Below are positions 4,555 to 59,951 of a DNA stretch of 64,000 nucleotides, piece by piece; the stretch's first letter is position 1; each line of letters begins with the position of its first letter. Source of the DNA: Dictyostelium discoideum (taxonomy: Eukaryota); the NCBI GenBank assembly GCA_000004695.1, contig CM000151.3, forward strand, positions 6,464,001-6,528,000, read 5' to 3'. Both the position numbers and the translations under genes were made by a program. The notes beneath the pieces were generated by a model. That model had not been told where the DNA came from. It made no database searches and saw nothing but the letters and a program-made list of their open reading frames with translations.

Positions 4555-5229
4555 ATGGATAATAATAATAATAATAATAATCCAAATAATAATAATCCAA
4601 ACAATAATCCAAATAATAATAATGAAATAGTTTTAGATATTAATAATGAAAATAAATATATTTTTGGTTTAAAATTTAATTATCCAAAAAAAGAAAATAA
4701 TGTTATTGTAAAAAGAAAAAGTGATAATAAAGATAAATTTATATGGATATTTTCAAATGAATACCCAATTAATTTAAGAGATTATATTTCAAAAGAAGAT
4801 TTTAAAAATGATATTAAAATAGTAAATGGATTAAATGGCTATTTTATATTTATAATTGGTTTATATTCATTTTGGGTGCTATTTTTTTCAGTTATGTTTA
4901 TGATTGGATTCATTCCAAAAATAAGTCCAGTTCTTTTGGGTTTATTTGGTCCATTTTTATTTTTCTCAATTTTAAGTTTAATTTATCAATTAAAGTTTAA
5001 AAGACATAAAACATTTTTAAATTATTTAGAAGGAAGAATTCGTCATTTAAATCATAAATATAGAGATATTCAAATAGTTTGGAAATTAGAAAAAAAGATT
5101 TTTATAAATTTTCATAGAGAAAAGAAATTAAAAGTTTGGATTGAAATTCAACTTCCAAATTATCCAATAAAGATTGTTCAATCTTGTCCACAATTTTCAA
5201 ATATTCAAATTTCAATACCAAATAATTGA
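4555..5229 (+). CDS. hypothetical membrane protein: Asn-rich N-terminus followed by two or three hydrophobic helices
   Basis: 224-aa ORF with a hydrophobic core (FIFIIGLYSFWVLFFSVMFMIGF, LLGLFGPFLFFSILSLIY) and AT-rich flanks typical of Dictyostelium promoters and terminators. Confidence 0.4.
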   Translation: MDNNNNNNNPNNNNPNNNPNNNNEIVLDINNENKYIFGLKFNYPKKENNVIVKRKSDNKDKFIWIFSNEYPINLRDYISKEDFKNDIKIVNGLNGYFIFIIGLYSFWVLFFSVMFMIGFIPKISPVLLGLFGPFLFFSILSLIYQLKFKRHKTFLNYLEGRIRHLNHKYRDIQIVWKLEKKIFINFHREKKLKVWIEIQLPNYPIKIVQSCPQFSNIQISIPNN

Positions 5230-5383: not shown

Positions 5384-7238
5384 TTATAATTTTTGAACTT
5401 GAAGGGTACCATTTGGTACAAGACCAGCATCTTGAACTGAAATTGATTTTAATTCATCGTTTGTATAAATTTTTCTTGGATAAGTACTTGAAAGTGTGAA
5501 TTTACCATGTTGAGAAGTATTATTTGAAATAAAAGTATGAACATCAATTAGTTTGGTTGATAATGGGAAAGTACCTTTAATGGTGGTACCATCTGTAAGA
5601 CGAATTTGAATGAGTGATTCTGTATAGTTTTGTTTTGGTACATAAACTGGAACTGGAGTTGGAGTTGTAGTGGTGGTGGTGGTGGTGGTGGCAACATTGT
5701 TATTTAGGGTTGCATTCTTTTTAGCAGCTCTTTCAAGACGATCAGCTTCAACTTTTGCTTTAATTTTTGCTTTTGCAATACGATCTGCTTCTTTTTCTTT
5801 TCTATCTTTTTCTTGTTCTCTCTTTAATTGATCCTCTTGCCATTTGGTGAGAGCTTGTTGAGTTGATTTACCACCTTGACGACGATTAATCTCTCTTTCA
5901 ATCTCTTTTTTAGCCTCTTCTTCGGCTTTCTTTACTCTAATCTCTTGAATTCTTGCTTCTAATCTTTTCTTTTGTTCTGCTTTCTCCTCTGGTGTCATTT
6001 GATAGTTTTCAATATCATTTTCATGTGCCACAAATTCATGTTCTGGATTATGTTTATTTGTATCTTTACAAGTTTGACAAAGATCATAATTTGGGCAAAC
6101 CTTACATTTATATCTATAACCTATGATTTGATTTTGACACATATCACATAATGCATTATGAACAGTTGTTGGATATTCTTTTTGTTCACTTGTAGTTGTT
6201 GTTGTTGTTGTGGTGGTAGTTGTACTACCATCAGTATTTGTAGTAGATGGGGTTGTAGTTGTTGTTGATTCACTTTTAGTGGTAGTAGCACCAGTATCAC
6301 CTTCTAATGGATCATCAATAGTTGGAGAATCCATATTTTCAAAAATCCAATCCATTGCAGATTGAGAACTTGAATTATTTACCATAATCAATGCTTTTCT
6401 ACATCTATTCTCTGGAAAACCCATATCTATTAAATCTTTCATCATAATTGGATCTGGTTGTGTTGCTCTTGCTGGTGGTCTACTCTTTGTTGCTGTTGAT
6501 GATGATGATGATGTAATTGGTGTTGGTACAGTTGGTGATGTTGTAGTATTACCATATTGTTGTTGATATTGTGCTTGTTGTTCTTGTTGTTTTTTTTCTA
6601 AATTATCTAAATAAGCTTGACGACTATTTCCACTGCCACCCCCACCACCACCCAATGCATTACCTTGTGATGCAAATGAAAGTTGTGGTTGTAATCTTTC
6701 AATTGAACTTTTTAATTGATTTTTATCAGCACCACTAAATTCATGAACTTGTTTTCTTTCAATAAAGAATTTAAATGTTGGCATTGCTCTAACACCTTGA
6801 CTTTGTGTTGTTGACTAAATAAAATATAAAAAAATAATAATATAAAATTATTAATATATATATATAAATTTAAAAGTTTATTATAATAATTTAAATTTTT
6901 TTAAAAAAAAAAAAAAAAACTACAAGAAATTTTTTTTTTTTACTTACTTTACACTGATCAACATCAACTTTTAAGAAAATAACATCTTTATATTCTGATG
7001 ATAATTGTTCGAAATATGGACTAATCATTTTACATGGTCCACACCATGTTGCTGTAAAATCTACAACAACTAATCTTTTACCTGCTGTAACTAATTCTGA
7101 ATCAAGTTGATTATCAACTAAAACTATTGATTATTAAAAAAAAAAAAAAAAATTTCATATTAAAACCCAATCATCAAATTTTTTAATTTACTAAATTAAT
7201 ATTATTATAAAAATATACTCACCTTTTACTCTTGACAT
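5384..7238 (-). CDS. thioredoxin-domain protein with UBA, ZZ-type zinc finger, charged coiled-coil and C-terminal UBX domain. Three exons: 7223-7238, 6948-7123 and 5384-6814
   Basis: Exon 1 encodes MSRVK and ends at a GTGAGT donor. Exon 2 encodes the thioredoxin core ...[41 protein letters not shown] (WCGPC active site) and ends at a GTAAGT donor. Exon 3 continues [17 protein letters not shown]... and contains the UBA ([38 protein letters not shown]), the ZZ finger ([29 protein letters not shown]...H.PEHEF), an E/K/R-rich coiled coil and the UBX ([17 protein letters not shown]...[13 protein letters not shown]...LVPNGTLQV). Confidence 0.8.
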
Positions 7239-7427
7239 TATGAAAAATAATATATAAATGTATATGTATAAAAATGAATTAAAATCAAATTAAAAAAAAA
7301 AAAAAGTGTGGGTTGTAAAAAAAAAAAAAAAATTTTAAATTAAAAAATAAAAATTTAAAAAAAAATAAAAATAAAAATAAAAATAAAAATTAAAGAAAAA
7401 AAAAATTAAATAATTCAATGCGATGTT

Positions 7428-9008: not shown

Positions 9009-9086
9009 GATATCGTAGCGAAGTGGTAACGTATTTGACTGAATCAAAGCTCCTAGGAGGCGCAGGTTCGAATCCTGCCGATATCG
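9009..9086 (+). tRNA. type-II (long variable arm) tRNA, most likely tRNA-Ser(UGA), with an irregular anticodon arm that may mark a pseudogene
   Basis: The acceptor stem GATATCG pairs perfectly with CGATATC. The D-loop AAGTGGTAA carries an A box. A long variable arm CTCCTAGGAGGC is present. The T-arm GCAGG-TTCGAAT-CCTGC is identical to eukaryotic tRNA-Ser. The anticodon region ATTTG-ACTGAAT-CAAAG gives TGA in the anticodon position but has C at position 33 and an A.G stem closure. Confidence 0.55.
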
Positions 9087-11939: not shown

Positions 11940-12781
11940 TTTTTTTTTTTTTTTTTTTTTTAATATTGGATTAACAAGATTGATATATGTCCATCTGTGT
12001 TAATACGAGTTTTATTTAATATTTATTTATAGGCTTATCATTTAAGCTGAAGGGTTATTTTAATCATATGAATTGATCAAAAGATATAATATTTGGGAGA
12101 GATGATTCTGGAATACAATAGTAATTAGCTGTTGTTTTTCTTAGCTTGATCGTTGAGGTGAGAAGGATCTTAGGATCTTTGAAATTATTATGGTCTTTTG
12201 CTGATAAGTTTTTCAGATCTTTTGCTTTTTTGATGTATTCTAGAGTGGCCAATTTGTGCCATTTCTTTAGAAGGGAGCTGTATGATAGTGATTCATTTGT
12301 TAAAGGATCTTCACTGTATATTTGATTGCAAATCCAAATCCAAATGTTGTGGAGGATAAGGGCCATTAGGTTTCTATATGCGTATGATCTGGATAGATCA
12401 TAGTCTATTGCTTTATAGTTCCATTCAAAGTATTCTTTGTGGAATCTGTGGTTGGCGTAATCTGCATTCACTTCTTGATCTTTTTTTTGCTGTCGGTGAT
12501 AATTTTGGAGTTATTCTATTAATGAAATTGTTATTTTGCCTAATTCTTGTATGGTGCCAGTTTTTACCTTTGCCTGTGGTAATATAGATGAAATTTTTGA
12601 GTTTATTTATTTTTATGAATTGTTTTGTTTTCTTGCATGAGAAGAACAGGTGACCGTATGGGTCTTTGCTCATATCTTCTTTGCAGAGTGGGCATTGTTT
12701 GTTGTGAAGGTAGTTTATTGGAAGGCATCTGGCATGGAATCTAAACATTGTGTCTCTTGTTTTAGGGTCTTTTATCTTCAG
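11940..12781 (-). mobile_element. 5'-truncated copy of the same TRE3-like non-LTR retrotransposon: its 3'-terminal ~820 bp plus a poly(A) tail
   Basis: 11962-12781 is about 98% identical to 12806-13625. The poly-T run at 11941-11961 is a poly(A) tail on the minus strand. The copy directly abuts the poly(A) of the full-length copy. The ORF fragments at 12064-12471 and 12425-12748 are frame-shifted pieces of the ORF2 C-terminus. Confidence 0.8.
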
Positions 12782-12906
12782 TATTTTTTTTTTTTTTTTT
12801 TTTAATATTGGATTAACAAGATTGATATATGTCCATCTGTGTTAATACGAGTTTTTATTTAATATTTATTTATAGGCTTATCATTTAAGCTGAAGGGTTA
12901 TTTTAA

Positions 12907-15900
12907 TCATATGAATTGATCAAAAGATATAATATTTGGGAGAGATGATTCTGGAATACAATAGTAATTAGCTGTTGTTTTTCTTAGCTTGATCGTTGAG
13001 GTGAGAAGGATCTTAGGATCTTTGAAGTTATTATGGTCTTTTGCTGATAAGTTTTTCAGATCTTTTGCTTTTTTGATGTATTCTAGAGTGGCCAATTTGT
13101 GCCATTTCTTTAGAAGGGAGCTGTATGATAGTGATTCATTTGTTAAAGGATCTTCGCTGTATATTTGATTGCAAATCCAAATCCAAATGTTGTGGAGGAT
13201 AAGGGCCATTAGGTTTCTATATGCGAATGATCTGGTTAGATCATAGTCTATTGCTTTATAGTTCCATTCAAAGTATTCTTTGTGGAATCTGTGGTTGGCG
13301 TAATCTGCATTCACTTCTTGATCTTTTTTGGCTGTCGGTGATAATTTTGGAGTTATTCTATTAATGAAATTGTTATTTTGCCTAATTCTTGTATGGTGCC
13401 AGTTTTTACCTTTGCCTGTGGTAATATAGATGAAATTTTTGAGTTTATTTATTTTTATGAATTGTTTTGTTTTCTTGCATGAGAAGAACAGGTGACCGTA
13501 TGGGTCTTTGCTCATATCTTCTTTGCAGAGTGGGCATTGTTTGTTGTGAAGGTAGTTTATTGGAAGGCATCTGGCATGGAATCTAAACATTGTGTCTCTT
13601 GTTTTAGGGTCTTTTATCTTCAGTATGTTGTTGAAGAGTTGATTATAGCTGTAGCCTCTTAAGTTTAGAGATGATTGGAATTCCGTTTTAGGGATGGTTG
13701 GATTTTGGTCTTGAATTGTGGTATACCATTCTGCCAGTGAAAGTGGTTGTCCATTTTCGTTTTTTATGGATGTGAGATTATTGTTGAAGATTGCTTTTTT
13801 TATTCTTATTTTGTTCCATTCGTCTAAGTTTTCTTTTAGGTATCTGGATGTGAATTTGTTTTTTTGGATCTGATATTCCCAGCTTTTGTGATGAGATGAG
13901 TTTGTTTGTTTGGTTTCTAGTGCTAGGATGAACTGGTTTATGATCCAAAGTTTCTGCGCCAGTTGTCTCAATTCTATATTCCAAATGTTCCAGCCCCCTA
14001 CTTTTAGTGGGTATCTTGCTCTTTTGGTTCTCATTAAATTAATAACTTGAAATCCACTAGCATTTTTGTTGTTTGGTGCCGATAAAAACCATTCGACTAA
14101 TTTATTGATTTGGTTTAATTCCTCTTCCTTAAAGTTCTCTACATATGAATAGTAGGTTAATTTAGAGAGTGCGAATGCTTTGAGGATGTTGGTTTTGGTT
14201 TTGATTGTTGAGTCAGTGGTTTTCCATAGTACTAAGGATGATCTTATTGTGTTTAATATTTCTGGCATTTTTCTTGTTATCCCTTTGCCTGTGAAGAAGT
14301 ATCCCAAGTATCTTTCTGGATTTGTAGATATTGGAATTCTTTGGTTGGTATTGTCTGGGTTGCCTATAAGAATTGATGAAGATTTGTCGATGTTTAGTTT
14401 TGAGGAAGTGGCTTTGCAAAATGAATTGAAGTGTTGTAGTACTAATTCAAGTTGTTGAGAGTCTGGGACCATTGAAGCCGAGTCGTCTGCAAAGCTTTGG
14501 AATTTCTCTCTGTGGTTGCTGTTGTTTAGAGGAAGGCCAGTAATTCGGTCATCTTGTAAAATTTTTCTAGCTAAAGCCTCTATTACAAGGACGAACAGGG
14601 TGGGTGATAGTGGATCTCCTTGTTTAACTCCTCTTTTGATCTCAAAGGGTATAGTAGTTCTACCATTAATTTCAATTCTTGCTTCAGATTTGGTGAGTAG
14701 ATTCATTATCAGGTTGATTATATTGGTTGGAATGTTGATGTGTTGTAGTGATCTGAGTATTGAACCGTGTGAGATCGAGTCAAAAGCTTTTTCGAAATCA
14801 TATAGTGTAATTATTCCGTTAATTCTTTTATCATTACAATAGTTGATTAATTCGTTCATTGATATGATATTATCTATAATGAATCTGCCTGGTACGAAAC
14901 CTTTTTGATTGTGGTTGATCACTTTCGTTAGTATTGGGATTATTCTATTGTTTATTAGTTTTGAGTGGATTTTATATATACAGTTAGCCAGTGTAATTGG
15001 TCTTCTGTTTTTGATTAGTTCGGGGTCTCCCTTTTTAGGTATCGTGATAATGAGGCCTTCTTTGTAATTTTTGCTAATTAGATGAGGATTTCTTAGAGTG
15101 TCGTTGAATGCTGAGGCCAGTATTGGAGCTAGTTTTTCTTTGTGTGTTATGTAGAATAAGTTTGGAATTCCATCTGGGCCTGGAGATTTGTGTGGGTTCA
15201 ATTGTTTTATTACTTCTAGGATCTCTTGTGATGTGAATTCATTTTCAAGGTTGTCCCATGTTGAGTCCCTGGTCACTGTCCAATTTTCCAACATTTCATA
15301 ATGAGATGGTGGGTCATCTTCTTTGTAGTCATAAAGATTTGAGTAATATTTTACGTATTCTTCTTCGATCAATTCCTGTTTGTTGATTGTTCTACCTTGT
15401 GCATCTTTTACTGCGTTGATGGTGAAATCATTGTGTCTTTTCTTGATTCTCGCGGAGATGTACTTGAGTGAGGTTTCTTCGCAATAGTTGTTCAATTCTT
15501 GTTTAAGTTGTTCTTCTCTTTTTTTAGATTCATTTATTGCTGAAAGGGTTGCGAAGGCTTGGTCTTTAAATTCTGTCTCTAGTAGGGAGATTAGATTTTT
15601 GATGTTTGCCTTATTGTTGTAGTCATTTTGTTTTTGAAATTCTGTGTATAGTTGTTTTATTTTGTTTAGTAAGCTGTTGAGTTGAGAGAAGGAAATAGAG
15701 TTATGGTTGGATGACAGCTCCCTTGAATAATCGTTAAGTAGGAAGTCTATTTTCTTAAGCATTATGCTTGAGAGGATTGAGGATTTTTTTAATCTCCATC
15801 TGCGCTTGTTCATCTGTATGTTGGGTAGAGTGAAGGTGGTTGATAGGAAGTTGTGATCTGATAGAGGTATGTCATTAATTTTTGGGGGGATTAGGTTCCT

Positions 15901-16611
15901 TAAGTATAATTGGCTGTAGTTGATTATGCTATTGTTAAGGTATATTCTGTCTAGTCTCCTTTCCAAGATTCTTGTGAGGTTATTGTTTGTGTTGTGTATC
16001 GTTCTTGAGAAGGTGGGTCTTTTATTTAGTTGGTCCATATCCATTAGGTTATTTGAAATTCTGATGGCTTCGATTACTGTGGCCATCTCATCTGGGGATT
16101 GTGTTGTCAAGTTGCCTTGGTCATCATTTGATGTGTGATTGTCATTGAAGTCTAAACAATTGAAGTCGCCTGCTATGATGTCGATGTTTTTTTTAGGGTT
16201 AGACGTTAGGTTGTGGTATTGGTTGTTGAAGTGTTTGTTTAGTGTTGAAGCTAGTGTTTTTCTTTTATCAGGTTGGGCCGGGGCGTATATGGCCAAGATT
16301 CTCGTTGTGGTATCTTTTATTAGAATGTCTGATATTATTAGTCTACCTTCTATTATGAATATTGGTGAGAGTTTTATGTTTTGGTTGTTGTGGTTTAGTA
16401 TTCCTATTCCGTTGCCTCTGTTGGTTGCGCTAATGATGGAGCCAGGAAATAGCTGGTGTGCTTGTGTTGCGTCGGCGTTGAGTTCATTGACTATGGTTAG
16501 TGCCAATGAGTTTGGGGGGGATTGGGATTTGATAAAGTCTGTTTTGTTTTTGAAGGAGGTGTCAGTGCCCCAACCTCTGACATTCCATTGGTTGATTTTG
16601 ATTACTACCAT
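12907..16611 (-). CDS. retrotransposon ORF2: apurinic-type endonuclease, reverse transcriptase and C-terminal Cys-rich (CCHC-like) domain
   Basis: 1234 aa. APE motifs: QWNVRGW, IIAGDFN, RLDRIY, LSDHNF. RT motifs: PITLANCIYKI, QKGFVPGRF, ITLYDFEKAFDSISH, GVKQGDPLSPTLF, SFADDSA (a YxDD variant). C-terminal zinc-knuckle-like segment: CPLCKEDMSKDPYGHLFFSC. Confidence 0.9.
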   Translation of the reverse strand: MVVIKINQWNVRGWGTDTSFKNKTDFIKSQSPPNSLALTIVNELNADATQAHQLFPGSIISATNRGNGIGILNHNNQNIKLSPIFIIEGRLIISDILIKDTTTRILAIYAPAQPDKRKTLASTLNKHFNNQYHNLTSNPKKNIDIIAGDFNCLDFNDNHTSNDDQGNLTTQSPDEMATVIEAIRISNNLMDMDQLNKRPTFSRTIHNTNNNLTRILERRLDRIYLNNSIINYSQLYLRNLIPPKINDIPLSDHNFLSTTFTLPNIQMNKRRWRLKKSSILSSIMLKKIDFLLNDYSRELSSNHNSISFSQLNSLLNKIKQLYTEFQKQNDYNNKANIKNLISLLETEFKDQAFATLSAINESKKREEQLKQELNNYCEETSLKYISARIKKRHNDFTINAVKDAQGRTINKQELIEEEYVKYYSNLYDYKEDDPPSHYEMLENWTVTRDSTWDNLENEFTSQEILEVIKQLNPHKSPGPDGIPNLFYITHKEKLAPILASAFNDTLRNPHLISKNYKEGLIITIPKKGDPELIKNRRPITLANCIYKIHSKLINNRIIPILTKVINHNQKGFVPGRFIIDNIISMNELINYCNDKRINGIITLYDFEKAFDSISHGSILRSLQHINIPTNIINLIMNLLTKSEARIEINGRTTIPFEIKRGVKQGDPLSPTLFVLVIEALARKILQDDRITGLPLNNSNHREKFQSFADDSASMVPDSQQLELVLQHFNSFCKATSSKLNIDKSSSILIGNPDNTNQRIPISTNPERYLGYFFTGKGITRKMPEILNTIRSSLVLWKTTDSTIKTKTNILKAFALSKLTYYSYVENFKEEELNQINKLVEWFLSAPNNKNASGFQVINLMRTKRARYPLKVGGWNIWNIELRQLAQKLWIINQFILALETKQTNSSHHKSWEYQIQKNKFTSRYLKENLDEWNKIRIKKAIFNNNLTSIKNENGQPLSLAEWYTTIQDQNPTIPKTEFQSSLNLRGYSYNQLFNNILKIKDPKTRDTMFRFHARCLPINYLHNKQCPLCKEDMSKDPYGHLFFSCKKTKQFIKINKLKNFIYITTGKGKNWHHTRIRQNNNFINRITPKLSPTAKKDQEVNADYANHRFHKEYFEWNYKAIDYDLTRSFAYRNLMALILHNIWIWICNQIYSEDPLTNESLSYSSLLKKWHKLATLEYIKKAKDLKNLSAKDHNNFKDPKILLTSTIKLRKTTANYYCIPESSLPNIISFDQFI

Positions 16612-17864
16612 TATGAGATGATATCGATCTCCTCTTGGGAGTCGTATAGCTGCGGTTTGGATGGTGAAGGGTAGATACTCTCTATGAAGCTCTCAATGAT
16701 TCCTTTCCTTTCTTTTTTGACAGGTGTCTTAGGGGTGGATGGGATGTAAGGGTTGCTTCTGTTTATTGTTGGTGAGAGTTGGGTGACCTCGTTGTTTGAG
16801 TGGATTTCCTCGTTCTTGCGTTTATGTGATGGAGGGATGTTTGGTGTCTTCTCTCTGTTTTCCGAGGATGAATGGATGTTAGTGCTCGTTTTGTTGGCAT
16901 TGTCTTTTTGGATGGCGTTGGATGTTGTGGTAGTGGTTGTGGTGGGTTTGACAGATTGAGATTCTGCTTGGTTTTTGGGGGGAAGAGGTTGAGAGGACTT
17001 TTTTGATTGGGCTTTTTTCTCTTGGGTTGATTGTTTATCAGACTGATTGTTTGCTGGGTCATTTGTTTGTTGTTGTGGTTTTGGTTGAGAGGATTTGATT
17101 GCTATCCTGTTTTGGGTGTTGGGAGGATCATCTGTCATCTCATCTTCTAATGGTTCTTCCGTGTTGTTTAACTCTACTTTCTTATTTTTCTTTTGTGAGG
17201 AGTAGGTTTTGGTGGCCGTTCTGATGGTAAAGTTGGCGATTTCTGTATTGTGTTGGCCAGATTTCATTTGATCGCCTATTTTGCATTCTATTAGACCGAA
17301 TACTAGGAGGTGGTCGGTGGAGTATATAGTATGGTATATTGCATAGGGTATTTCTTCTGCAAAGGCAGTTTTGATGAGGGCGTCCACTATTCCTGCCTTT
17401 TCTCTTGGAATTCTTACTCTTCCTGTGAGGACGTGGTAGTCTCTACTGGAGGTGATGAAGGTTCCCAATTTGCTTCTATCTCTAATGATATTTAGGAGAG
17501 ATTGTTCGTTTTTAATCATCAGGTGTATCATTTTTCTAGTTCCTTTGCCTATGTATATCTTGTCGATTGGGATATCGTAGTTTGAGAGTGTTTTTCTCAT
17601 TTCTTCTAACCCCATGAGATCCATTTTGGGGAATTCGAGTGTAATTGGGTAGAATCCGTTGTTTTTCTCGTAGGTTGAGAGCGCAGTCATGTTCAATATG
17701 GTCTCGCAGTATTTGGAGATGTCTTTGAGGCCTATTGATAATTTGGGATAGGTCTCCTTTATCTCTGCTGTTTTTGTGGAGAATTCCTTAATGAAGTTCT
17801 CTGATGCCTCGTCCATATGGGTGGAGGGGTTGGCCATTTTAGCCGCGTCTGCGTAGGAATTCAT
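16611..17864 (-). CDS. retrotransposon ORF1: 417 aa with a Pro/Gln/Thr-rich basic C-terminus, typical of a nucleic-acid-binding ORF1 protein
   Basis: The ORF lies directly upstream of ORF2, with its stop overlapping the ORF2 start at 16611. It has no cellular homolog features. It is preceded by a ~215-nt 5' UTR. Confidence 0.75.
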   Translation of the reverse strand: MNSYADAAKMANPSTHMDEASENFIKEFSTKTAEIKETYPKLSIGLKDISKYCETILNMTALSTYEKNNGFYPITLEFPKMDLMGLEEMRKTLSNYDIPIDKIYIGKGTRKMIHLMIKNEQSLLNIIRDRSKLGTFITSSRDYHVLTGRVRIPREKAGIVDALIKTAFAEEIPYAIYHTIYSTDHLLVFGLIECKIGDQMKSGQHNTEIANFTIRTATKTYSSQKKNKKVELNNTEEPLEDEMTDDPPNTQNRIAIKSSQPKPQQQTNDPANNQSDKQSTQEKKAQSKKSSQPLPPKNQAESQSVKPTTTTTTTSNAIQKDNANKTSTNIHSSSENREKTPNIPPSHKRKNEEIHSNNEVTQLSPTINRSNPYIPSTPKTPVKKERKGIIESFIESIYPSPSKPQLYDSQEEIDIIS

Positions 17865-18158: not shown

Positions 18159-18239
18159 TGATAAAGGCGAGATTCGAACTCGCGAAGCCGAAGCATAAGA
18201 ACTTGAGTCTTACCCATTTGACCACTCTGGTACTTTACC
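18159..18239 (-). tRNA. tRNA-Leu(CAA), type II, 81 nt, no intron
   Basis: Minus-strand read: GGTAAAG-TA-CCA-GAGTGGTCAAA-TGG-G-TAAGA-CTCAAGT-TCTTA-TGCTTCGGCTTC-GCGAG-TTCGAAT-CTCGC-CTTTATC-A. Acceptor stem is 7 bp with one G.U pair, D-stem is 3 bp, anticodon stem is a perfect 5 bp, the loop has U33 and G37 flanking anticodon CAA, the variable arm is 12 nt, and T-stem and loop are canonical. Confidence 0.85.
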
Positions 18240-20403: not shown

Positions 20404-20868
20404 ATGTCAAACTTTCAAAATCAAGAAATTAATATTGGTTCGGTTGTACTTGGTGATAGATCATTAAGTAATGGTCAATATGGTGATAAAAAGAGTATTC
20501 GTCATGTTGATTTTGATGTACCATTTTCAGGTATTCCAAAAGTTTCTTTAGGAATTAATTTCTTGGATGCATCATCTTCAGAACAAATTCGTATTCGTTG
20601 TATTGCTCAAAATATAACATCAAAAGGTATGGACATTTCATTCACAACATGGAATGATAATACTGTCTATGATGTAGCAGTTGATTATGTTGCTATTTAT
20701 AATCCAAAATTTGGAAATTCAAATAATAAAAATAATAATGATAATAATATTAGTAATACAAATACAAACCAACAAAGAAATCAATATAATGATAATGAAA
20801 ATAATAATTATCAACAACAAAGCCAACAAAGTTATTATGAAAATACAAATAATAATAACAATAATAAA

Positions 20869-20926
<58 letters not shown>

Positions 20927-21465
20927 GTGAAGATAAACAACAACAACATCAACAACAAGGAAGATATCAAGAAAATAACAATTATAATAGAAATGATAAT
21001 GATAATGATTATCAATCTCAATCTCAATCTCAATCTCAATCTCAATCTCAATCTCAATCTCAATCACAATTACAATCAAATAATTTTAATGGTAAAAATG
21101 TAAATATTAGATCAAATAAATTTAATAATTATATTAGAGATAATAATGGTAAAGGTGATATGTCACAAACTGCAAGAAATAATGAAACATGGATAATAAC
21201 ATCTGCCAATAATAATGGAGATTTATTTTTTATTCATAATAGATATAATCATTATCTTTCAAGTAATGGTGATAGAGTATTGGTTGGTGAAAAGAATGAT
21301 TCTTCAATTTGGAAGATTTCACAACGTAGACAAGGTGTTTACTCAATTCAAAACTATAAAAATTCAAATTATCTAAGTTCAACTGATAGAAATGAATTAA
21401 AAACAAATGTTAAAGTTGTAAATTCTTGGGAAGAATTTAATTTTAATTTTGTTCAAGATTCTTGA
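20404..21465 (+). CDS. H-type lectin domain protein: N-terminal H-lectin domain, N/Q-rich linker with (SQ)n, C-terminal fascin-like beta-trefoil-type domain
   Basis: 353-aa single-exon ORF. The N-terminus (VDFDVPFSGIPKVSLGINFLDASSSEQIRIRCIAQNITSKGMDISFTTWNDNTVYDVAVDYVAI) matches the Helix pomatia agglutinin and discoidin H-type lectin pattern (..LD.....R......NIT..GF......TW....VY....W.AI). The C-terminus (WIITSANNNGDLFFIHNRYNHYLSSNGDRVLVGEKNDSSIWKI...YSIQNYKNSNYLS...VVNSWEEFNF) is trefoil-like. Confidence 0.8.
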
Positions 21466-25445: not shown

Positions 25446-25496
<51 letters not shown>

Positions 25497-28400
25497 TATT
25501 TTAATTTAAAACTTACAATATGATCATTTGGTAAATCAATGAATCTTGGTAAATAAGATGGTAAAGTATGCAATGATATTAAATTTTGGGTTGAAGGTGG
25601 ATTGATAGTACCTCTTTTTGAAAATTCATCACTATTGACTAAATCAACGATTGAAGGTAAACCTAATTTCTTAATCAACTCTTTTACATTTGAGAATGAT
25701 TCAATTGATAAACCACTAAATGTATTGATAGTATCTTGATTTGAAGGATTTGTAGATTTATGATTAACTAATAAATAACAATAATGATGGAATAAATAAG
25801 CTTTTCTAATGAATGGAGTTAGAATTGTTTCAATGGTTTCAATTTCACCTTCATTTGATAAAGAGTAATTTTCATGAACTGGATTTGAAATTCTTGAGCT
25901 AATAATATCACTTGCTAAATGAATGTATGATTTATAAATATATGGATATGGATTGACATCACGATTTAAGAAATGACTCATTGCACAAATTATAAATGGG
26001 TCAATATTGTGAAATCTCTTTTGTTGATCTAAAGAATAGAAATCGAAATATTTATAATTAAATTGAATATCTGTTAATTTCATAACATTATTATATAACA
26101 ATGTTAAAGTTTCTAATTGACGTTGAAATTCAGATTTTGAATAAATATAATAACCATTATTATTATTATTATTATTATTACCAATACCATTTAGACCATC
26201 TAAATTATTAATACCACTATTTGTATAATTATAATTCTTTCTTGAAGTAATTTCTAAAATTTCAATATTTGATAAAATAAATTTCAAGAAATAAATAGCA
26301 TTTGATGGATTTAATTGCTTTGGTGGATATTGATAACTCCAATCAGAGTTTACAAATGAAAAGAATAAATTTGAAACCAATGCTGTATTTTCAGGGTGAG
26401 CAACAAGATCAGAGTGATTAATAGGTTTAACTATTAATGCAATATTAGAGGCACGATTACATAATGGACATTTAAAGTGATCATTTACATAGTATGGTGC
26501 ATAAACTGATAAACAACTTCTATGTATATAATGACCACAAGTTTGAACACGAGTTTTATTTGAAAATTGCATCAACTCTATATTTAAATCTATATCTAAA
26601 TCATCTATATCATATTTATTATATTCTTCATAGGTTTCAATATTCATTGGTAAATCAACATGTTTTTTATTCTCTTCAATTACTTCTTCTCCATTGTGTT
26701 GTTGTTGCTGTTGCTGTTGTTGTTGTTGTTGTTGTTGCTCTGGTTTTGAACTTCTTAAAAATGCTTGATAATTTGTAAACTTTTTAATTGAGGAATGTTC
26801 AATTAAACCAATTGAACAAATTGGATCAGTTATATTATTTGAATTATTTTTACAAACTACACAAACTAAATCTTTTTCTTCACCACTATGAATATGTTCA
26901 TTTGTAGTTGTTGATGAACCATTAAAATCTTCATCATCATCATCATTTAAAAGTTCATTAGATTGTAAGAATTGTAATTGTTGCATTCTCATTTTTCTTT
27001 TAATTTCTTCTTGTCTTTCTTGAGCGATTTTCTTTCTAATATTTGCATCAATTTCACTTTGTTGTGATAATAATGATGCCATATCTAATTTCTTTTCCTT
27101 TAATAACTTTTCAATATTATTATCATATTCATATAACATTGTAAATAATTTGTTAATTAAATTCTTTTTATCTGAAAATACATTATTCTTTTCAATATTT
27201 AATGATAATTCTATTATTAAATTTAATAAATTTGTTTCAGCAATATTTTGATTATTATTATGATTATTATTTTGATTATTATTATTATTTTCTTTAATAT
27301 TAAAATCTAATTTCTCTTCATTTTCTTCAATATTTTTAATAATTTCAATTGGTTTAAATAAAAGTAACATTGGATTATCACCATCAGCAGATTTGATATT
27401 ATCATTGAATAAAGATTTTTCAATTTTTTCATTTGCAATTGACATATTAATTAATTTTGAAAATTGTTGTTTTAATTGTTGATCAGTCAAAGAGATTGAA
27501 GATTCTAAAAATGTTCTAACTGATAAAACTATAATGTATAAGGTATGATTGAGTAATGGATCATAATATTGATTAAAATCATTTGAATCAACTTTAATTT
27601 TACCGGCAGATAACATTAAACTAAGGAAATTTGAAATATAAAAATCCATATCTCTTTCATCATTATTTTGAACATTATTATTTGAATTTGAAATTAAATT
27701 ATAATTTGGATATAAAAATTTTAATAAAATTGAATTTAAAATTGTAAATAAAATTGGTTCATTTAATAATTTTTCAACATTTTTTAAATTTTCAGGTAAA
27801 GGATCAGTTTTTGAAGGTAATGGATAAGATTCTGGTATTGGGTGATTATTTTGTTTTAAGTAATCATAATAGTTTGCCAATGATTTATAGGTGAAAGAAT
27901 TTGGATCGAAATAATGATATGGATAATAAACATCGAAACGATCCCAATACTCTGGTTTCAAAATTAACTTTCCATCTGGTTTTGGTTGATGACTAACTTG
28001 TTTAATTATATCTTCAACATTGAATAATGTAAATTCTTTACGTTGATCTAAAAGTTTTGAAAAGTTATTGGTATTAAAAGTTAAGGCTTGAATTATATGA
28101 TATCTTGCTTCTTGAATACCATATTTTGCTTGTTTTCTATGTTGAATGATAACAATGATATACTTTAGGAATTGGGATAACATTGTTGGATTATCAGTAT
28201 CCATATTATAGTTACCTGAAAAGTTATTCAATGCTAACAATATGAAATGTCTAGTACCCAATAGCATTGAACAATATTGTACCAATGTTAAATCGATTGA
28301 AAACAAAGACCAAATATAATACGAGGTGAAATCACTAATATTTAAATTTCTTTCCCATAGACGACATTGATGTTGACCCACTAGAATAGCGGGTAACATT

Positions 28401-29693
28401 GATTTGGTTGCCAAAAATAAAACAGTCTCCAATGGTATCTTTGATTTTATTGTATCAAATGAATACTGAGGTGAGTCATAAACTGAATTCAATAAATAAA
28501 TTCCAATTAATCTATTGGTTGGTAAATGTAATGGTACAGCGACTTCACCACTTAATATATTTGCCTTTGGTAATAAAGTACCACTAAACATTCTATGAAG
28601 AGCAGTGTCTGGGTTTTGATGTCTATCAATTGACAATTGTAAATGGCTCAAAAGGATGTCTAAATACTTTAAACTTGAAAAACCTTGTTTATGTAAACTA
28701 TGAAAGAATGTATCAAATGCCATAAATGATTGACATTCAATTGAAACCACATTTGAAATCACTGGTAGCTCGTATTCAATTGCTTTTTGAGTCTCTCTTT
28801 TGATTGGACATAACAATTGAATTTCATCAGTGATTGCCAATAGAGAATTTACAACGGTATCAGAGTTGTTATCAATATATTCACAATTTTTGTCGTGTCT
28901 AAAAATATTGGAGATATAATTATAATCTTGATTACAATAAAACTCTTGATCATAGTTCTTTCTCTGTGTGGCATTGTATAGATCATATTTATTCTTTGTT
29001 TGAACCAATGAAAGTTTAGTTTTAATTAAAATTGATAAAAGGTTTTGTTTTGAATAACCAGTTGAAAATGGTACAGCGATTGAGGGTAATTCAAACATTT
29101 GACATGAAATGGCCGATACCAATGATCTAACTTGAGAATTTGAAGACAATGCCAACTTTGGATAATTGGTTAAAAACTCCTCACAAAAGATAAACTTAAA
29201 GTATCTATTACCAATTATTGTTATAATCAATGGTCTAAATATCATCAACACTCTTGGTTCGCCATGGATCAATGAAATGATTGATCCCACTGCATTGTTT
29301 TCCCTCTTTAATTGATCCACATTCTCATAAGAGAGTACTTCAGAGTATGGTAATTTCACTGGTGAATATAAATCAAAACTATTTGGATCCAATATACGTT
29401 GACTAAACTCCTCAGAGATTATATACAATAGTGGATATGATTTTCTTGCTAATCTATCAATAAACTTGAATAAATTAAATGATTGACTGAGTACTAATTT
29501 CTTTGTAAACTTTTTAATATTTTTCTTAAATATTGGTGTATCCATATTCAATTTTGTATTTGATGAAATTGGTTTAGTAATATCATTAAATATATGAAAA
29601 TTTTTACTAAATACTTCATTAAATAATTCAGTTTCATCACCACAATCTGATTCATCAGCTTCTTCGTTTTGTATCATTTCTTCATCTGAATTA

Positions 29694-29791
<98 letters not shown>

Positions 29792-30160
29792 TGGATTATT
29801 ATTATTATTTTGTTGTTGTTGTTGTATATTATTGTGGAAATCACGCATTATCTGGTTAAAACCATTATTATTAATTAAACCTCTAAGTGCATTAAATCGA
29901 TCGATATGTTCATCTGAATCAGAATCGGAATCAGAATCGGAATCAGAATCAGAATCATACATTAAATTTCTTAAATCTACATTATTGCCAGCATCTTCAT
30001 CCATTTCTTCGAGTGAACTATCTTGAATCATTTCACTATCACTATTTTCTTTATTGGTATTACTATAATCACTACTATAGTTAACGTCTTCTTCCTCTTC
30101 TTCTTCATTATAATGATTATTTCTGTTTTGGTTGTCGAAAAAGTTGATGTATCTGCCAAT

Positions 30161-30253
<93 letters not shown>

Positions 30254-30256
30254 ATT

Positions 30257-30322
<66 letters not shown>

Positions 30323-30505
30323 AAATCTAGGTCCTAATCCATTATTTATAATTGCTTCATTGTTAATATTGTTAATAAAACGATGGAAATACTGAATAAT
30401 ATTATTGTCTACCAAAAGGTTTCCAAATCCTAAGTTGCCTTCTTCTGGCTGTTGTTGCTGTTGCTCTTGTGGTTGTTCTTGAGGTGGTTGTTGCTGTTGT
30501 GGTAG

Positions 30506-30546
<41 letters not shown>

Positions 30547-30776
30547 GCTCTTGTGGTGGTTGTAGTTGTGGTTGCTCTTGTGGTAGTTGTTGTAGTGGAT
30601 GCTGCATTTGTTGTTGGCCTTGTAAAACGTTTCCAACTAAATTATTATTACCCATATCTAATACCCTATCAATAAAATTAATTTGACGAAGTTCAGCTAT
30701 TTCTTGTAGATCTATTCCTGGGAATACAAACTGTTGTTGTTGTTGCTGAAGTATCTGTGGTATCTGTTCTTGCTGC

Positions 30777-30872
<96 letters not shown>

Positions 30873-36337: not shown

Positions 36338-40666
<4,329 letters not shown>

Positions 40667-46817: not shown

Positions 46818-47350
46818 TTATATATTTAAACGTGATTTTGAATTAAAATTTGAAAGTGTAAAAAATTTGACGATTTCATCACGAGATACATCATCTTCTC
46901 TTCTTTTTTCAATATTTTTAACTTTAATTGTCTTCTTTGCACCTTTTTCTTTAATAGTGATAATGTAAAGAGCACCAGAAGTGATTGAAGCGTCTTGTTG
47001 TTCTTCTGGTGTTGGATTTTCAATATACATAGTTTCAGCATTAAATCCTGCATTACACAAATCACCAACTATACCAATACGTTCTAAAAATAAGTTTGGA
47101 CCAAGACTAATGACAAAGATATCAGGAGTTGAGAATTTATGAGCAATCATTTGACTTTCACTTGACAAAGTTGGAGGTAATTGTTGTCTTCTCTTTTGTG
47201 AATATAATTCACGTTCTCTCGAATAGACCTTATCCATCGCAACACTTAATCCAGTAATTGGTAAATTAAAATTTGTTAAATAACAATTACTATAATAATT
47301 ATAATTATAATTATTATTATTATTATAATTATTATAGCTATTATTATTAT

Positions 47351-47382
<32 letters not shown>

Positions 47383-49143: not shown

Positions 49144-49189
<46 letters not shown>

Positions 49190-59774: not shown

Positions 59775-59899
59775 TTAAATAAAATCAGTTGGTAAGTTAT
59801 TACAATAATTAGGATTTTGATTTGGATTTGAATTTGAATTTGAATTTGAATTTGAATTTGAATTTGGATTTGAATTTGAATTTGAATTATTATTATTAC

Positions 59900-59951
<52 letters not shown>

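What the first reader, a model, noticed from the sequence alone, without database searches (positions are those of the whole stretch)
5384..7238. Unusual domain fusion: thioredoxin - UBA - ZZ finger - coiled coil - UBX
UBA plus UBX defines p97/Cdc48 adaptor proteins. An N-terminal redox-active thioredoxin (WCGPC) and a ZZ finger on the same polypeptide are not a standard adaptor architecture that I recognise. Such a protein could couple Cdc48 substrate handling to disulfide reduction. The first exon is 16 nt (MSRVK) and the thioredoxin core is a separate exon, so ORF-only annotation would miss the thioredoxin part.
Basis: partly seen in the sequence, partly recalled or inferred. Interest (0 to 1): 0.55.

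Follow-up and report, generated by a model that had tools for sequence, protein, structure and literature searches.

The report
Thioredoxin-bearing p97 adaptor UBXD18 (Dictyostelium)
The flagged gene is real and correctly spliced, but it is the already annotated and published Dictyostelium p97-binding protein UBXD18, a UBXN1/SAKS1-type adaptor whose intact thioredoxin domain, p97-docking motif and ZZ finger have never been studied.

Summary
The minus-strand exons 7238-7223, 7123-6948 and 6814-5384 splice into a 540-aa protein (not about 600 aa). Its parts are thioredoxin (WCGPC), UBA, ZZ finger, a 97-residue helix and UBX. An intron-less contig from a public sequencing run joins all three exons at exactly these junctions, so the thioredoxin exons are on the same mRNA.

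The product is identical to XP_643331.1/Q75JM6. By position it is DDB_G0276057 = ubxd18. Warren et al. 2020 showed that UBXD18 co-precipitates with p97 and mediates decanoic-acid sensitivity. Their text never mentions the thioredoxin domain or the zinc finger.

The UBA-to-UBX part is orthologous to animal and fungal UBXN1/SAKS1. N-terminal thioredoxin fusions to this adaptor also occur in other Amoebozoa, chytrids and glaucophytes, and Trimastix carries a C-terminal one. They almost always keep CxxC.

One feature is new here. A SHP-box p97-binding motif (FxGxGxxL) follows the thioredoxin domain in about half of the fusion proteins and in none of 95 thioredoxin-less orthologues. In Dictyostelia it is degenerate.

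Most likely function: an adaptor that tethers a live disulfide reductase to p97. This is inferred, not shown. The gene and its architecture are already known. The redox role is unexplored.

The parts
7239..7296 (-). Minimum 5' UTR
   Evidence: Transcript contig L003 nt 1-58 match window 7296..7239 at 100%.
7223..7238 (-). Exon 1 (ATG plus 13 nt; MSRVK and the first base of Val6)
   Evidence: The junction 7223|7123 is seen in spliced contig L003. T. lacteum encodes MSKVKVLV without an intron here, and A. subglobosum has a phase-1 intron at the same place.
7124..7222 (-). Intron 1 (99 nt, GT..AG, phase 1)
   Evidence: absent from L003.
6948..7123 (-). Exon 2: the N-terminal two thirds of the thioredoxin fold, including WCGPC
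7032..7046 (-). Thioredoxin active site W32-C33-G34-P35-C36
   Evidence: The alignment to human TRX1 shows the same [16 protein letters not shown]. W32, C33, P35 and C36 are invariant in 18 family members, G34 in all but one.
6815..6947 (-). Intron 2 (133 nt, GT..AG, phase 0, after DVDQCK)
   Evidence: absent from L003. T. lacteum and A. subglobosum have a phase-0 intron at the same position.
5384..6814 (-). Exon 3: the C-terminal third of the thioredoxin fold, the SHP-like motif, UBA, ZZ, the long helix, UBX and the stop codon
   Evidence: This single exon holds Trx residues 65-105 (including the cis-Pro motif MPT, window 6776..6784) and all downstream domains. The thioredoxin domain therefore cannot belong to a separate transcript.
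6650..6676 (-). SHP-box-like motif F111-A-S-Q-G115-N-A-L118-G119, in the disordered linker 8 residues after the Trx domain
   Evidence: G115, L118 and G119 are nearly invariant in alignment A1. Family-wide strict FxGxGxxh motif: 60/117 against 1.8 expected from shuffles, and 0/95 in Trx-less orthologues. Reference motif: Ufd1 FRAFSGSGNRL (PMC5042407). In D. discoideum the first Gly is Ser, so the strict consensus is not met.
6311..6454 (-). UBA domain (residues 185-232) with M195-G-F197
   Evidence: Pfam UBA_7, 3.8e-18. It matches mouse UBXN1/SAKS1 UBA 1whc at 9e-11 and the USP5 UBA. M13 and F15 of the MGF motif are the ubiquitin-binding residues mutated in human UBXN1 (PMC10897191).
6035..6160 (-). 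ZZ zinc finger (residues 283-324); six Cys at 287, 290, 301, 304, 310, 313 plus two His
   Evidence: Pfam ZZ, 1.4e-11. The best solved relatives are p62/SQSTM1 ZZ (1.5e-11), HERC2 and MIB1. Cys positions are. pLDDT is about 88.
5702..5992 (-). Long charged helix (residues 339-435), the conserved EREKxRR...DKxER region of UBXN1-type adaptors
   Evidence: AF2 helix 339-435, pLDDT about 90. E340, E372, R375, D422 and R426 are invariant. The region aligns with UBXN1 orthologues.
5393..5629 (-). UBX domain (residues 460-538) with R469 and the S3/S4 loop Y509-P-R511
   Evidence: Pfam UBX, 1e-15. The alignment to the UBXN4 and UBXN7 UBX domains shows IQIRL and (F/Y)PR in register. FPR is the p97-binding loop mutated in human UBXN1.

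Best explanation
The gene is Dictyostelium discoideum ubxd18 (DDB_G0276057; XP_643331.1; Q75JM6). It is the organism's only detected UBXN1/SAKS1-type UBA-UBX adaptor of the AAA+ unfoldase p97/Cdc48. Compared with animal and most fungal UBXN1, it has gained an N-terminal module: a canonical, catalytically intact thioredoxin followed by a SHP-box-like p97-binding motif. It also carries a ZZ finger where other UBXN1 proteins have an OTU1-type C2H2 finger.

Proposed mechanism. The UBX domain docks in the cleft of the p97 N domain. Binding to p97 is shown by published co-IP; that UBX mediates it is inferred. The SHP-like motif contacts the Nc lobe of the same or a neighbouring N domain (inferred). 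The UBA domain holds the ubiquitin chain of a client (inferred from the conserved MGF). The ZZ finger reads a free N-terminus or another short peptide of the client or a partner (inferred from its closest solved relatives). The thioredoxin, held next to the pore entrance, reduces intra- or intermolecular disulfides in oxidised or mislocalised clients so that p97 can unfold and thread them. It would be recycled by thioredoxin reductase and NADPH (inferred). This is the p97 counterpart of TXNL1 at the 26S proteasome.

Confidence split: about 0.95 that it is UBXD18, a UBXN1-type p97 adaptor; about 0.8 that the thioredoxin is redox-active; about 0.45 that its targets are p97 clients.
For: Gene model and RNA.

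Identity: the product is identical to XP_643331.1. The adjacent ORF is DDB_G0276059. The H-lectin ORF at 20.4 kb fits staI = DDB_G0276051. These bracket the gene as DDB_G0276057 = ubxd18, whose published description fits: UBA and UBX domains, closest human proteins UBXN1 and UBXD2, co-IP with p97.

UBXN1 orthology: a profile of the UBA-to-UBX part hits named 'UBX domain-containing protein 1' of Nematostella, insects, molluscs and fungi at about 1e-72 to 1e-99 with about 97% query coverage. No second D. discoideum protein appears.

Thioredoxin intact: E = 3.5e-31 to human TRX1, with identical WCGPCKMI, the buried Asp (VVDF) and MPT. In the fusion family 75 of 82 cluster representatives keep CxxC, and 64 keep exactly WCGPC.

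Recurrent association: Trx-UBA-(ZZ/C2H2)-UBX, Trx-UBA-PUB, UBA-UBX-Trx and UBX7_N-UBX-Trx all exist. They occur in Amoebozoa, chytrids, glaucophytes and a metamonad.

SHP motif linked to the Trx domain: strict motif in 60/117 against 1.8 by shuffling, always 7-20 residues after the Trx domain, and 0/95 in Trx-less orthologues.

Structure model: four confident folded domains and one long helix joined by disordered linkers, pTM 0.28. This fits a flexible multi-anchor adaptor.

Analogy: the redox-active TXNL1 binds the degrading proteasome above Rpn11.
Against: No redox activity, client or SHP interaction has been measured for this protein.

In D. discoideum and all other Dictyostelia the first glycine of the SHP box is Ser or Thr. 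The Ufd1 structure paper calls both glycines strictly conserved, so the motif may bind weakly or not at all in this species.

The UBX loop is YPR rather than FPR.

One of the three acidic residues that I recall as forming the N-terminal-Arg pocket in p62 ZZ is Asn here (CPNYDLC against CPDYDLC).

p97 can thread more than one strand at once (my own knowledge), so reduction may not be strictly required.

The published phenotype (decanoic-acid resistance, mTORC1) has no obvious redox component.

The link to DDB_G0276057 rests on neighbouring locus tags and on the published description, not on a sequence printed in the paper.
Confidence: 0.5

Rival explanations
1. The thioredoxin acts on the machine rather than on clients. 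It would be a tethered redox sensor or repair enzyme that keeps p97 or the adaptor itself reduced. p97 has oxidation-sensitive cysteines such as Cys522 in the D2 Walker A motif (my own knowledge). Alternatively, its oxidation state could gate adaptor binding.
For: The Trx domain sits next to a p97-docking motif. The active site is conserved. UBXD18 is needed for a change in p97 ATPase activity in cells (PMC7519326).
Against: There is no evidence for a redox step in that phenotype. The UBA and ZZ domains point to client handling. Whether Dictyostelium p97 has the relevant cysteine was not checked here.
Confidence: 0.2
2. The thioredoxin is a generic cytosolic thioredoxin that happens to be fused. 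It gives local reducing power or solubility but has no specific mechanistic coupling to unfolding.
For: It is very close to housekeeping TRX1 (3.5e-31). Long disordered linkers and no predicted interdomain contacts (pTM 0.28).
Against: The fusion recurs in several orientations and with two different p97-binding modules, UBX and PUB, across distant eukaryotes. The SHP motif co-occurs with the Trx domain. Neutral fusions would not be kept and re-invented in this way.
Confidence: 0.15
3. The thioredoxin-fold domain works non-catalytically, like the UAS domains of FAF1, FAF2 and UBXN7. It would be a fatty-acid sensor or a protein-docking surface, and it would be the element through which decanoic acid acts on UBXD18 and p97.
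For: UAS domains are thioredoxin-like folds. Those of FAF1 and FAF2 bind long-chain unsaturated fatty acids, and that of UBXN7 docks on RING domains (PMC8181520; PMC10080908). UBXD18 confers decanoic-acid sensitivity, and the authors themselves point to fatty-acid/UBX-protein precedents.
Against: UAS domains lack CxxC. Here WCGPC, the buried Asp and the cis-Pro are all retained and conserved family-wide, which argues for catalysis. No UAS or Thioredoxin_7 signal reaches the Pfam cut-off.
Confidence: 0.1
4. Gene-model artefact: the thioredoxin exons belong to a separate upstream transcript and the fusion is only predicted.
For: Exon 1 is very short (16 nt). ORF callers give only the 466-aa product.
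Against: Intron-less contig L003 joins the 5' UTR, exon 1, exon 2 and exon 3 exactly. Exon 3 itself encodes the last third of the thioredoxin fold. Intron positions are conserved in T. lacteum and A. subglobosum. Transcriptome-derived complete ORFs with the same architecture exist in Ceratiomyxa and other species. The ubxd18 cDNA was cloned and rescues the mutant.
Confidence: 0.01

Closest known systems
UBXN1 / SAKS1 (UBX domain-containing protein 1) family of UBA-UBX p97 adaptors
   Same: UBA with MGF, a long charged helix with the EREKxRR...DKxER signature, and a C-terminal UBX with Arg and (F/Y)PR. Profile hits to named UBXN1 of animals and fungi reach about 1e-72 to 1e-99 over about 97% of the UBA-to-UBX query. 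The UBA matches mouse UBXN1 1whc. p97 binding is published for UBXD18.
   Different: It has an extra N-terminal catalytic thioredoxin plus a SHP-like motif. It has a ZZ finger where invertebrate and fungal UBXN1 carry an OTU1-type C2H2 finger (PF24560). The UBX loop is YPR, not FPR.
TXNL1/TRP32, the thioredoxin cofactor of the 26S proteasome
   Same: A redox-active thioredoxin domain with WCGPC tethered to the substrate-entry side of an AAA+ unfolding machine in the ubiquitin system.
   Different: TXNL1 uses a PITH domain and a C-terminal tail to bind Rpn11, Rpn10 and Rpn2. It has no UBA, UBX, ZZ or SHP element. Its target machine is the proteasome, not p97. The relation is an analogy, not family membership.
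UAS-domain UBA-UBX adaptors (FAF1, FAF2/UBXD8, UBXN7), and UBXN4/UBXD2 with its UBX7_N domain
   Same: p97 adaptors that combine a UBX domain with another N-terminal or internal domain; in the UAS group that domain has a thioredoxin-superfamily fold. Warren et al. name UBXD2 as the second closest human protein. Only the UBX part of that sequence is checked, against PDB 2kxj.
   Different: UAS domains lack CxxC and act as fatty-acid sensors or RING-docking surfaces. Here the thioredoxin is canonical and close to housekeeping TRX1.
p62/SQSTM1 (ZZ plus UBA autophagy receptor)
   Same: The ZZ finger is most similar to p62 ZZ (1.5e-11). All zinc ligands and the CDxC Asp are kept. The protein also carries a UBA.
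   Different: There is no PB1 domain or LIR. The first Asp of p62's CPDYDLC is Asn in D. discoideum, though it is Asp in T. lacteum and other family members. N-terminal-Arg binding is therefore uncertain.
Bipartite SHP-plus-UBX p97 binders (p47/Shp1, Ufd1-Npl4)
   Same: The family consensus FxGxGxxLG after the Trx domain matches the SHP box (Ufd1 FSGSGNRL). Together with UBX it would give two-site binding to the p97 N domain.
   Different: The D. discoideum copy has Ser at the first Gly. There is no SEP domain. The motif is attached to a thioredoxin, which was not found described in the papers searched.

Membership tests
UBXN1/SAKS1-type UBA-UBX adaptor | UBA domain with the ubiquitin-binding MGF motif | tested here: met
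   UBA_7 3.8e-18. M195-G-F197 is present. Matches the UBXN1 UBA 1whc at 9e-11. M13 and F15 are the functional residues in human UBXN1.
UBXN1/SAKS1-type UBA-UBX adaptor | Full-length collinear similarity (UBA, charged helix, UBX) to named UBXN1 proteins | tested here: met
   Profile A2 hits UBXN1 of Nematostella, insects, molluscs and fungi at about 1e-72 to 1e-99 with about 97% query coverage. No other D. discoideum hit appears.
UBXN1/SAKS1-type UBA-UBX adaptor | UBX domain with the conserved Arg and the FPR S3/S4 loop | tested here: inconclusive
   UBX 1e-15. R469 is present, but the loop is Y509-P-R511, a conservative F-to-Y change kept in all Dictyostelia.
UBXN1/SAKS1-type UBA-UBX adaptor | Physical binding to p97/Cdc48 | not testable with these tools
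   Published: GFP-UBXD18 co-immunoprecipitates with Dictyostelium p97-RFP (PMC7519326; PMC8473879).
Thioredoxin (PF00085), catalytic class | WCGPC active site, buried Asp and cis-Pro loop in a full-length Trx fold | tested here: met
   94.4 bits against a cut-off of 23.5. W32-C33-G-P-C36, D27 (VVDF) and M75-P-T77 are present. E = 3.5e-31 to human TRX1. pLDDT 93-95.
Thioredoxin (PF00085), catalytic class | Disulfide reductase activity and recycling by thioredoxin reductase | not testable with these tools
   Only indirect support: CxxC is kept in 75 of 82 fusion-family representatives.
ZZ-type zinc finger | Two zinc sites (Cys and His ligands) in ZZ spacing | tested here: met
   44.4 bits against 21.4. 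Cys287, 290, 301, 304, 310 and 313 plus two His align with the p62 ZZ ligands.
ZZ-type zinc finger, N-degron-reading subclass (p62-like) | Acidic pocket: the CDxC Asp and the two Asp of CPDYDLC (residue roles recalled from the p62 literature) | tested here: inconclusive
   CDMC Asp is kept. D. discoideum has CPNYDLC, with the first Asp changed to Asn. T. lacteum, P0015 and P0016 keep D-x-D.
SHP box (BS1) p97 N-domain-binding motif | F-x-G-x-G-x-x-hydrophobic, with both glycines strictly conserved | tested here: not met
   D. discoideum has F-A-S-Q-G-N-A-L. F, the second G, N and L are kept, but the first G is Ser. At family level the strict motif is present in 46 of 82 representatives and in 0 of 95 Trx-less orthologues.
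TXNL1/TRP32 | C-terminal PITH (DUF1000) domain that binds the proteasome | tested here: not met
   No PITH hit in Pfam. TXNL1 matches only through its Trx domain (1.2e-18). The relation is analogy only.
UAS domain (FAF1, FAF2, UBXN7) | Thioredoxin-like fold that lacks CxxC, placed between UBA and UBX | tested here: not met
   CxxC is present. The domain is N-terminal to UBA. The best Pfam model is canonical Thioredoxin. The definition of UAS is from PMC8181520.

The most novel reading that the evidence does not exclude
A conserved 'thioredoxin plus SHP box' module turns UBXN1-type adaptors into p97/Cdc48-tethered disulfide reductases. This would be the first thiol-reductase cofactor of p97, the counterpart of TXNL1 at the proteasome. 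Because the fusion has arisen or been kept in Amoebozoa, chytrids, glaucophytes and (in another orientation) a metamonad, it would also predict, Rosetta-stone style, a functional thioredoxin-UBXN1-p97 link in organisms where the proteins are separate, including humans. It might further explain the unexplained role of UBXD18 in the p97 response to decanoic acid.
Probability: 0.35. Interest if true: 0.65.

Novelty: already known. Interest (0 to 1): 0.37.

Why it matters
The gene is not a discovery. The exact spliced protein is in RefSeq and UniProt with these domains, and it has been knocked out, tagged and shown to bind p97.

What remains open is what the thioredoxin does. Neither the text of the only experimental paper nor a 2026 review of disulfide systems in proteostasis connects a thioredoxin with p97/Cdc48.

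Three observations make a concrete hypothesis: the active site is conserved family-wide, fusions to both UBX- and PUB-type p97 binders recur, and a SHP motif travels with the Trx domain. Together they suggest that oxidised or disulfide-linked clients are reduced at the unfoldase. The hypothesis is cheap to test because ubxd18-null and rescue strains of Dictyostelium already exist.

Tried and rejected
1. I looked for a sequence, primer or protein size in Warren et al. and its SI to tie DDB_G0276057 directly to this ORF. None is held as text. The link was made instead from neighbours: DDB_G0276059 and staI/DDB_G0276051, an H-lectin protein.

2. Full-text searches for six other neighbouring locus tags found nothing. 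ifkC papers give no locus tag. PMC4683709 mentions only DDB_G0276095.

3. Exact look-ups of nine large neighbouring ORFs mostly failed, because those genes are spliced.

4. My home-made ZZ and C2H2 HMMs cross-hit the same region. I resolved overlaps by best E-value and spot-checked the result with Pfam.

5. Membership in TXNL1 (no PITH) and in UAS (CxxC present) was considered and rejected.

6. The separate-transcript idea was rejected by the spliced contig.

It is a lead, not a result.

8. I did not run fold search, because the sequence-level domain assignments were unambiguous. No complex prediction with p97 was possible, because p97 is not in the window.

9. Gene neighbourhood was not used as functional evidence, because eukaryotic neighbours are not operonic.
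Full report
**What is in the sequence.** The window is AT-rich (24% GC) with the poly-T and poly-Asn features of Dictyostelium. The segments are 7238..7223, 7123..6948 and 6814..5384. They give an in-frame CDS of 1623 nt and a protein of 540 aa, not about 600 aa. ORF listing alone returns only the 466-aa ORF that starts at MPTFKFF.

**Support for the gene model.**
- The 540-aa product is identical to XP_643331.1 / EAL69328.1 / UniProt Q75JM6, 'ZZ-type zinc finger-containing protein' of D. discoideum AX4. The reference annotation therefore already holds this model.
- A 1612-nt contig assembled from public run SRR24091722 (locus L003) aligns to the window in three collinear blocks: 7296-7223, 7125-6948 and 6814-5474. 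Identity is 99.9-100% and both introns are missing. Only spliced RNA gives such a contig. It carries 58 nt of 5' UTR, exon 1, exon 2 and most of exon 3 on one molecule.
- Exon 3 encodes residues 65-105 of the thioredoxin fold, including the cis-Pro motif MPT, contiguously with UBA, ZZ and UBX. The thioredoxin cannot be a separate gene.
- The phase-0 intron after DVDQCK lies at the same position in Tieghemostelium lacteum and Acytostelium subglobosum. The phase-1 intron after RVK is shared with A. subglobosum. T. lacteum encodes MSKVKVLV without that intron, which validates the exon 1/exon 2 junction.
- The same 90%-identity cluster holds a 466-aa ORF-caller product, P0004.

**Domains and key residues.** Pfam gives Thioredoxin 5-103 (5e-27), UBA_7 185-232 (3.8e-18), ZZ 283-324 (1.4e-11) and UBX 460-538 (1e-15). 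All are far above the curated cut-offs.
- *Thioredoxin.* It matches human cytosolic TRX1 at E = 3.5e-31. The WCGPCKMI string, the buried Asp (VVDF) and the MPT cis-Pro loop are all shared.
- *UBA.* It resembles the UBA of mouse UBXN1/SAKS1 (1whc, 9e-11) and of USP5. It keeps the MGF motif, two residues of which (M13, F15) are mutated to abolish ubiquitin binding in human UBXN1.
- *ZZ.* It is closest to p62/SQSTM1 ZZ (1.5e-11) and has all zinc ligands. The CDxC Asp is kept, but CPDYDLC is CPNYDLC in D. discoideum. Other family members keep D-x-D.
- *UBX.* It aligns best with UBXN4 and UBXN7 and has IQIRL and Y-P-R where most UBX domains have F-P-R.
- *Structure model.* An AlphaFold2 model built on an 18-sequence alignment gives pLDDT 87-95 for the four domains. 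Residues 339-435 form a single helix. The linkers are disordered (pLDDT below 50), and pTM is 0.28, so no fixed arrangement between domains is predicted.

**Identity with a published gene.** The adjacent plus-strand ORF 4555..5229 is XP_643330.1, 'hypothetical protein DDB_G0276059'. An H-type-lectin ORF at 20404..21465 fits staI = DDB_G0276051, listed with an H-lectin domain in PMC9117722. Locus tags therefore fall as window coordinates rise, and the gene lies between 59 and 51. The stretch between it and the H-lectin ORF holds two tRNA genes and a retrotransposon. The only UBA/UBX gene in this interval is the one under study.

DDB_G0276057 is ubxd18 of Warren et al. 2020 (PMC7519326). Their findings:
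- A REMI mutant resistant to decanoic acid has its insertion in the UBA-coding region. GATC sites lie at both borders of that region, at 6454 and 6313.
- The closest human proteins are UBXN1 and UBXD2, as I also find.
- GFP-UBXD18 co-precipitates with Dictyostelium p97.
- Decanoic acid lowers p97 ATPase activity only when UBXD18 is present.
- The cDNA rescues the mutant.

Neither the main text nor the SI text contains the words thioredoxin or zinc finger. The link to the locus tag is by position and description, because no sequence is printed in the paper. I put it at about 0.95.

**Family.** A profile of the UBA-to-UBX part hits proteins named 'UBX domain-containing protein 1' in Nematostella, insects, molluscs, Gonapodya and Synchytrium, and similar unnamed proteins of Umbelopsis and Allomyces. 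The named hits score about 1e-72 to 1e-99 over about 97% of the query; Allomyces is weaker and partial. Those proteins are 310-360 aa with UBA, an OTU1-type C2H2 finger (PF24560), the helix and UBX, and they have no thioredoxin. No second D. discoideum protein appears. UBXD18 is therefore the organism's UBXN1/SAKS1 orthologue, with added parts.

A profile search of 1.84 billion cluster representatives, followed by domain typing of the best 150, gave these counts (Pfam spot checks):

| Architecture | Representatives |
|---|---|
| Trx-UBA-helix-UBX | 32 |
| Trx-UBA-ZZ-helix-UBX | 12 |
| Trx-UBA-UBX | 11 |
| Trx-UBA-(C2H2)-helix-PUB | 13 |
| Trx-less UBA-C2H2-helix-UBX | 30 |
| UBA-ZZ-helix-UBX | 5 |

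A few proteins carry the Trx at the C-terminus.

Named taxa with a fusion:
- Dictyostelium, Polysphondylium, Tieghemostelium and Acytostelium;
- Ceratiomyxa (transcriptome);
- the chytrids Physocladia, Rhizoclosmatium and Siphonaria (the last flagged as possible contamination by NCBI);
- the glaucophytes Cyanophora and Gloeochaete;
- Trimastix, which has UBA-UBX-Trx.

Of 82 representatives that combine Trx with UBX or PUB, 75 keep CxxC and 64 keep exactly WCGPC. A merely structural thioredoxin fold would be expected to lose the motif, as UAS domains have.

Alignment A1 shows a nearly invariant G115, L118 and G119 in the otherwise variable linker just after the Trx domain. The consensus is FxGxGxxLGG. 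This is the SHP box (BS1), the linear motif by which Ufd1 (FRAFSGSGNRL), p47, Derlin-1 and others bind the Nc lobe of the p97 N domain (PMC5042407).
- The strict pattern F.G.G..[LIVMF] occurs in 60 of 117 Trx+UBX/PUB proteins.
- Residue shuffles give a mean of 1.8 and a maximum of 6.
- In the examples inspected, the motif lies 7-20 residues after the Trx domain.
- It occurs in 0 of 95 Trx-less UBXN1 orthologues.

Thioredoxin and SHP box thus travel as one module. In D. discoideum the motif is [10 protein letters not shown], the second Gly, Asn and Leu match Ufd1's contact residues, but the first Gly is Ser. All four Dictyostelia genera show Ser or Thr there, while related ZZ-bearing sequences have canonical FAGSGMTL, FSGTGHRL and FQGTGQTL. 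The structure paper calls both glycines strictly conserved, so the motif fails a strict test in this species and its function here is uncertain.

**Most likely mechanism.**
- *Shown by others:* UBXD18 binds p97 and modulates its cellular activity.
- *Inferred from conserved residues:* UBX and perhaps the SHP-like motif anchor the protein on p97 N domains. UBA binds ubiquitin chains. ZZ reads a free N-terminus or another short peptide.
- *Inferred from conservation and recurrent fusion:* the thioredoxin is catalytically active and is held at the unfoldase to reduce disulfides in clients, so that they can be unfolded and threaded.

This mirrors TXNL1, a redox-active thioredoxin that binds the actively degrading proteasome over Rpn11. 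Even there the contribution of redox chemistry is unsettled. Human UBXN1 recruits p97 to BAG6-bound mislocalised secretory and membrane proteins. A tethered reductase would make sense for such clients, but that is speculation.

**Rivals.**
- The thioredoxin services p97 itself, or acts as a redox switch.
- It is a generic thioredoxin with no specific coupling.
- It acts like a UAS fatty-acid sensor and underlies the decanoic-acid phenotype. The intact active site argues against this.
- The fusion is a gene-model artefact. This is refuted.

**Novelty and interest.** The gene, its splicing and its domain list are in public databases. The protein has been published as a p97 binder, so the finding as given is already known. 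The redox idea was not found in the literature searched:
- No paper among those listed combined 'thioredoxin domain' with UBX, UBA and Cdc48.
- The papers listed that pair thioredoxin with the SHP box use the word for an expression tag or for the UAS fold.
- The 2026 review of disulfide systems in proteostasis does not mention p97.

A specialist would find the conserved Trx-SHP module a neat and testable lead rather than a surprise. I score interest at 0.37.

**Limits.**
- No activity, binding or localisation can be tested here.
- Most fusion-family sequences come from unnamed metagenome or transcriptome sources.
- The number of independent fusion events is not resolved.
- The p62 residue roles, REMI's use of GATC sites, the p97 cysteine and the UBXN4 sequence come from my own memory and are marked as such.

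Noticed in passing
window 6650..6676 (minus strand), residues 111-119; family-wide in P0016-P0261: A SHP-box-type p97-binding motif (FxGxGxxLG) directly follows the thioredoxin domain in about half of all Trx-UBX and Trx-PUB fusion proteins, and in none of 95 Trx-less UBXN1 orthologues. It is degenerate (FASQGNALG) in Dictyostelia.
   Followed up: yes
P0030-P0032, P0035, P0044, P0113, P0150, P0167 (no window coordinates): Thioredoxin is also fused to the PUB domain, which binds the p97 C-terminal tail. Forms seen are Trx-UBA-(C2H2)-helix-PUB and Trx-PUB. In Trimastix (P0171) and in a UBX7_N-UBX protein (P0176) the Trx is C-terminal. These look like independent routes that attach a thioredoxin to p97.
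   Followed up: partly
window 12010..17864 (minus strand) and tRNA-Leu(CAA) 18159..18239 (minus strand): A non-LTR retrotransposon: a 417-aa ORF at 16611..17864 and a reverse-transcriptase ORF of 1234 aa at 12907..16611. It lies about 300 bp downstream of a tRNA-Leu gene in the same orientation, the position I recall as typical of Dictyostelium TRE3-type elements. Its 3' end carries a near-perfect tandem duplication with a start-to-start spacing of about 843 bp (12010-12781 against 12853-13623).
   Followed up: partly
window 9009..9086 (+): A tRNA-Ser(UGA) gene lies in the almost ORF-free stretch upstream of ubxd18.
   Followed up: no
window 4555..5229 (+): The neighbouring gene converging on ubxd18 is DDB_G0276059 (XP_643330.1). 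It is a 224-aa protein with a poly-Asn N-terminus and hydrophobic segments, named 'Transmembrane protein' in UniRef. It ends 155 bp from the ubxd18 stop codon.
   Followed up: partly
window 20404..21465 (+): An ORF with an H-type lectin domain. It fits staI (DDB_G0276051), a stalk-specific marker in PMC9117722. It was used here only to orient the locus-tag numbering.
   Followed up: partly
window 25496..31378 (minus strand): A 1960-aa ORF with an N-terminal UBR box (N-recognin zinc finger). It is another N-degron reader about 20 kb from the ZZ-finger gene. This is probably coincidence, since eukaryotic neighbours are not operonic.
   Followed up: no
window 46818..52003 (minus strand): A GCN2-type eIF2-alpha kinase split over two ORFs: an RWD domain at 50864..52003, and kinase, HisRS-like and anticodon-binding domains at 46818..50777. 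It is presumably one of the Dictyostelium ifk genes.
   Followed up: no
window 59775..62753 (minus strand); 36338..40666 (+); 43776..45614 (minus strand): Three other genes: a hybrid histidine kinase (HisKA, HATPase_c, receiver), a PIG-O/PIG-G-type GPI ethanolamine-phosphate transferase, and a Nop9-like PUF protein. The 612-aa Nop9-like ORF is found by exact match only as an unnamed Logan entry, so the reference model probably differs.
   Followed up: no
P0002 (537 aa), P0003 (545 aa) against P0001 (540 aa): D. discoideum strain variants differ mainly in the length of the Thr/Ser-rich linkers, while the folded domains are almost invariant. This fits linkers that act only as spacers.
   Followed up: partly
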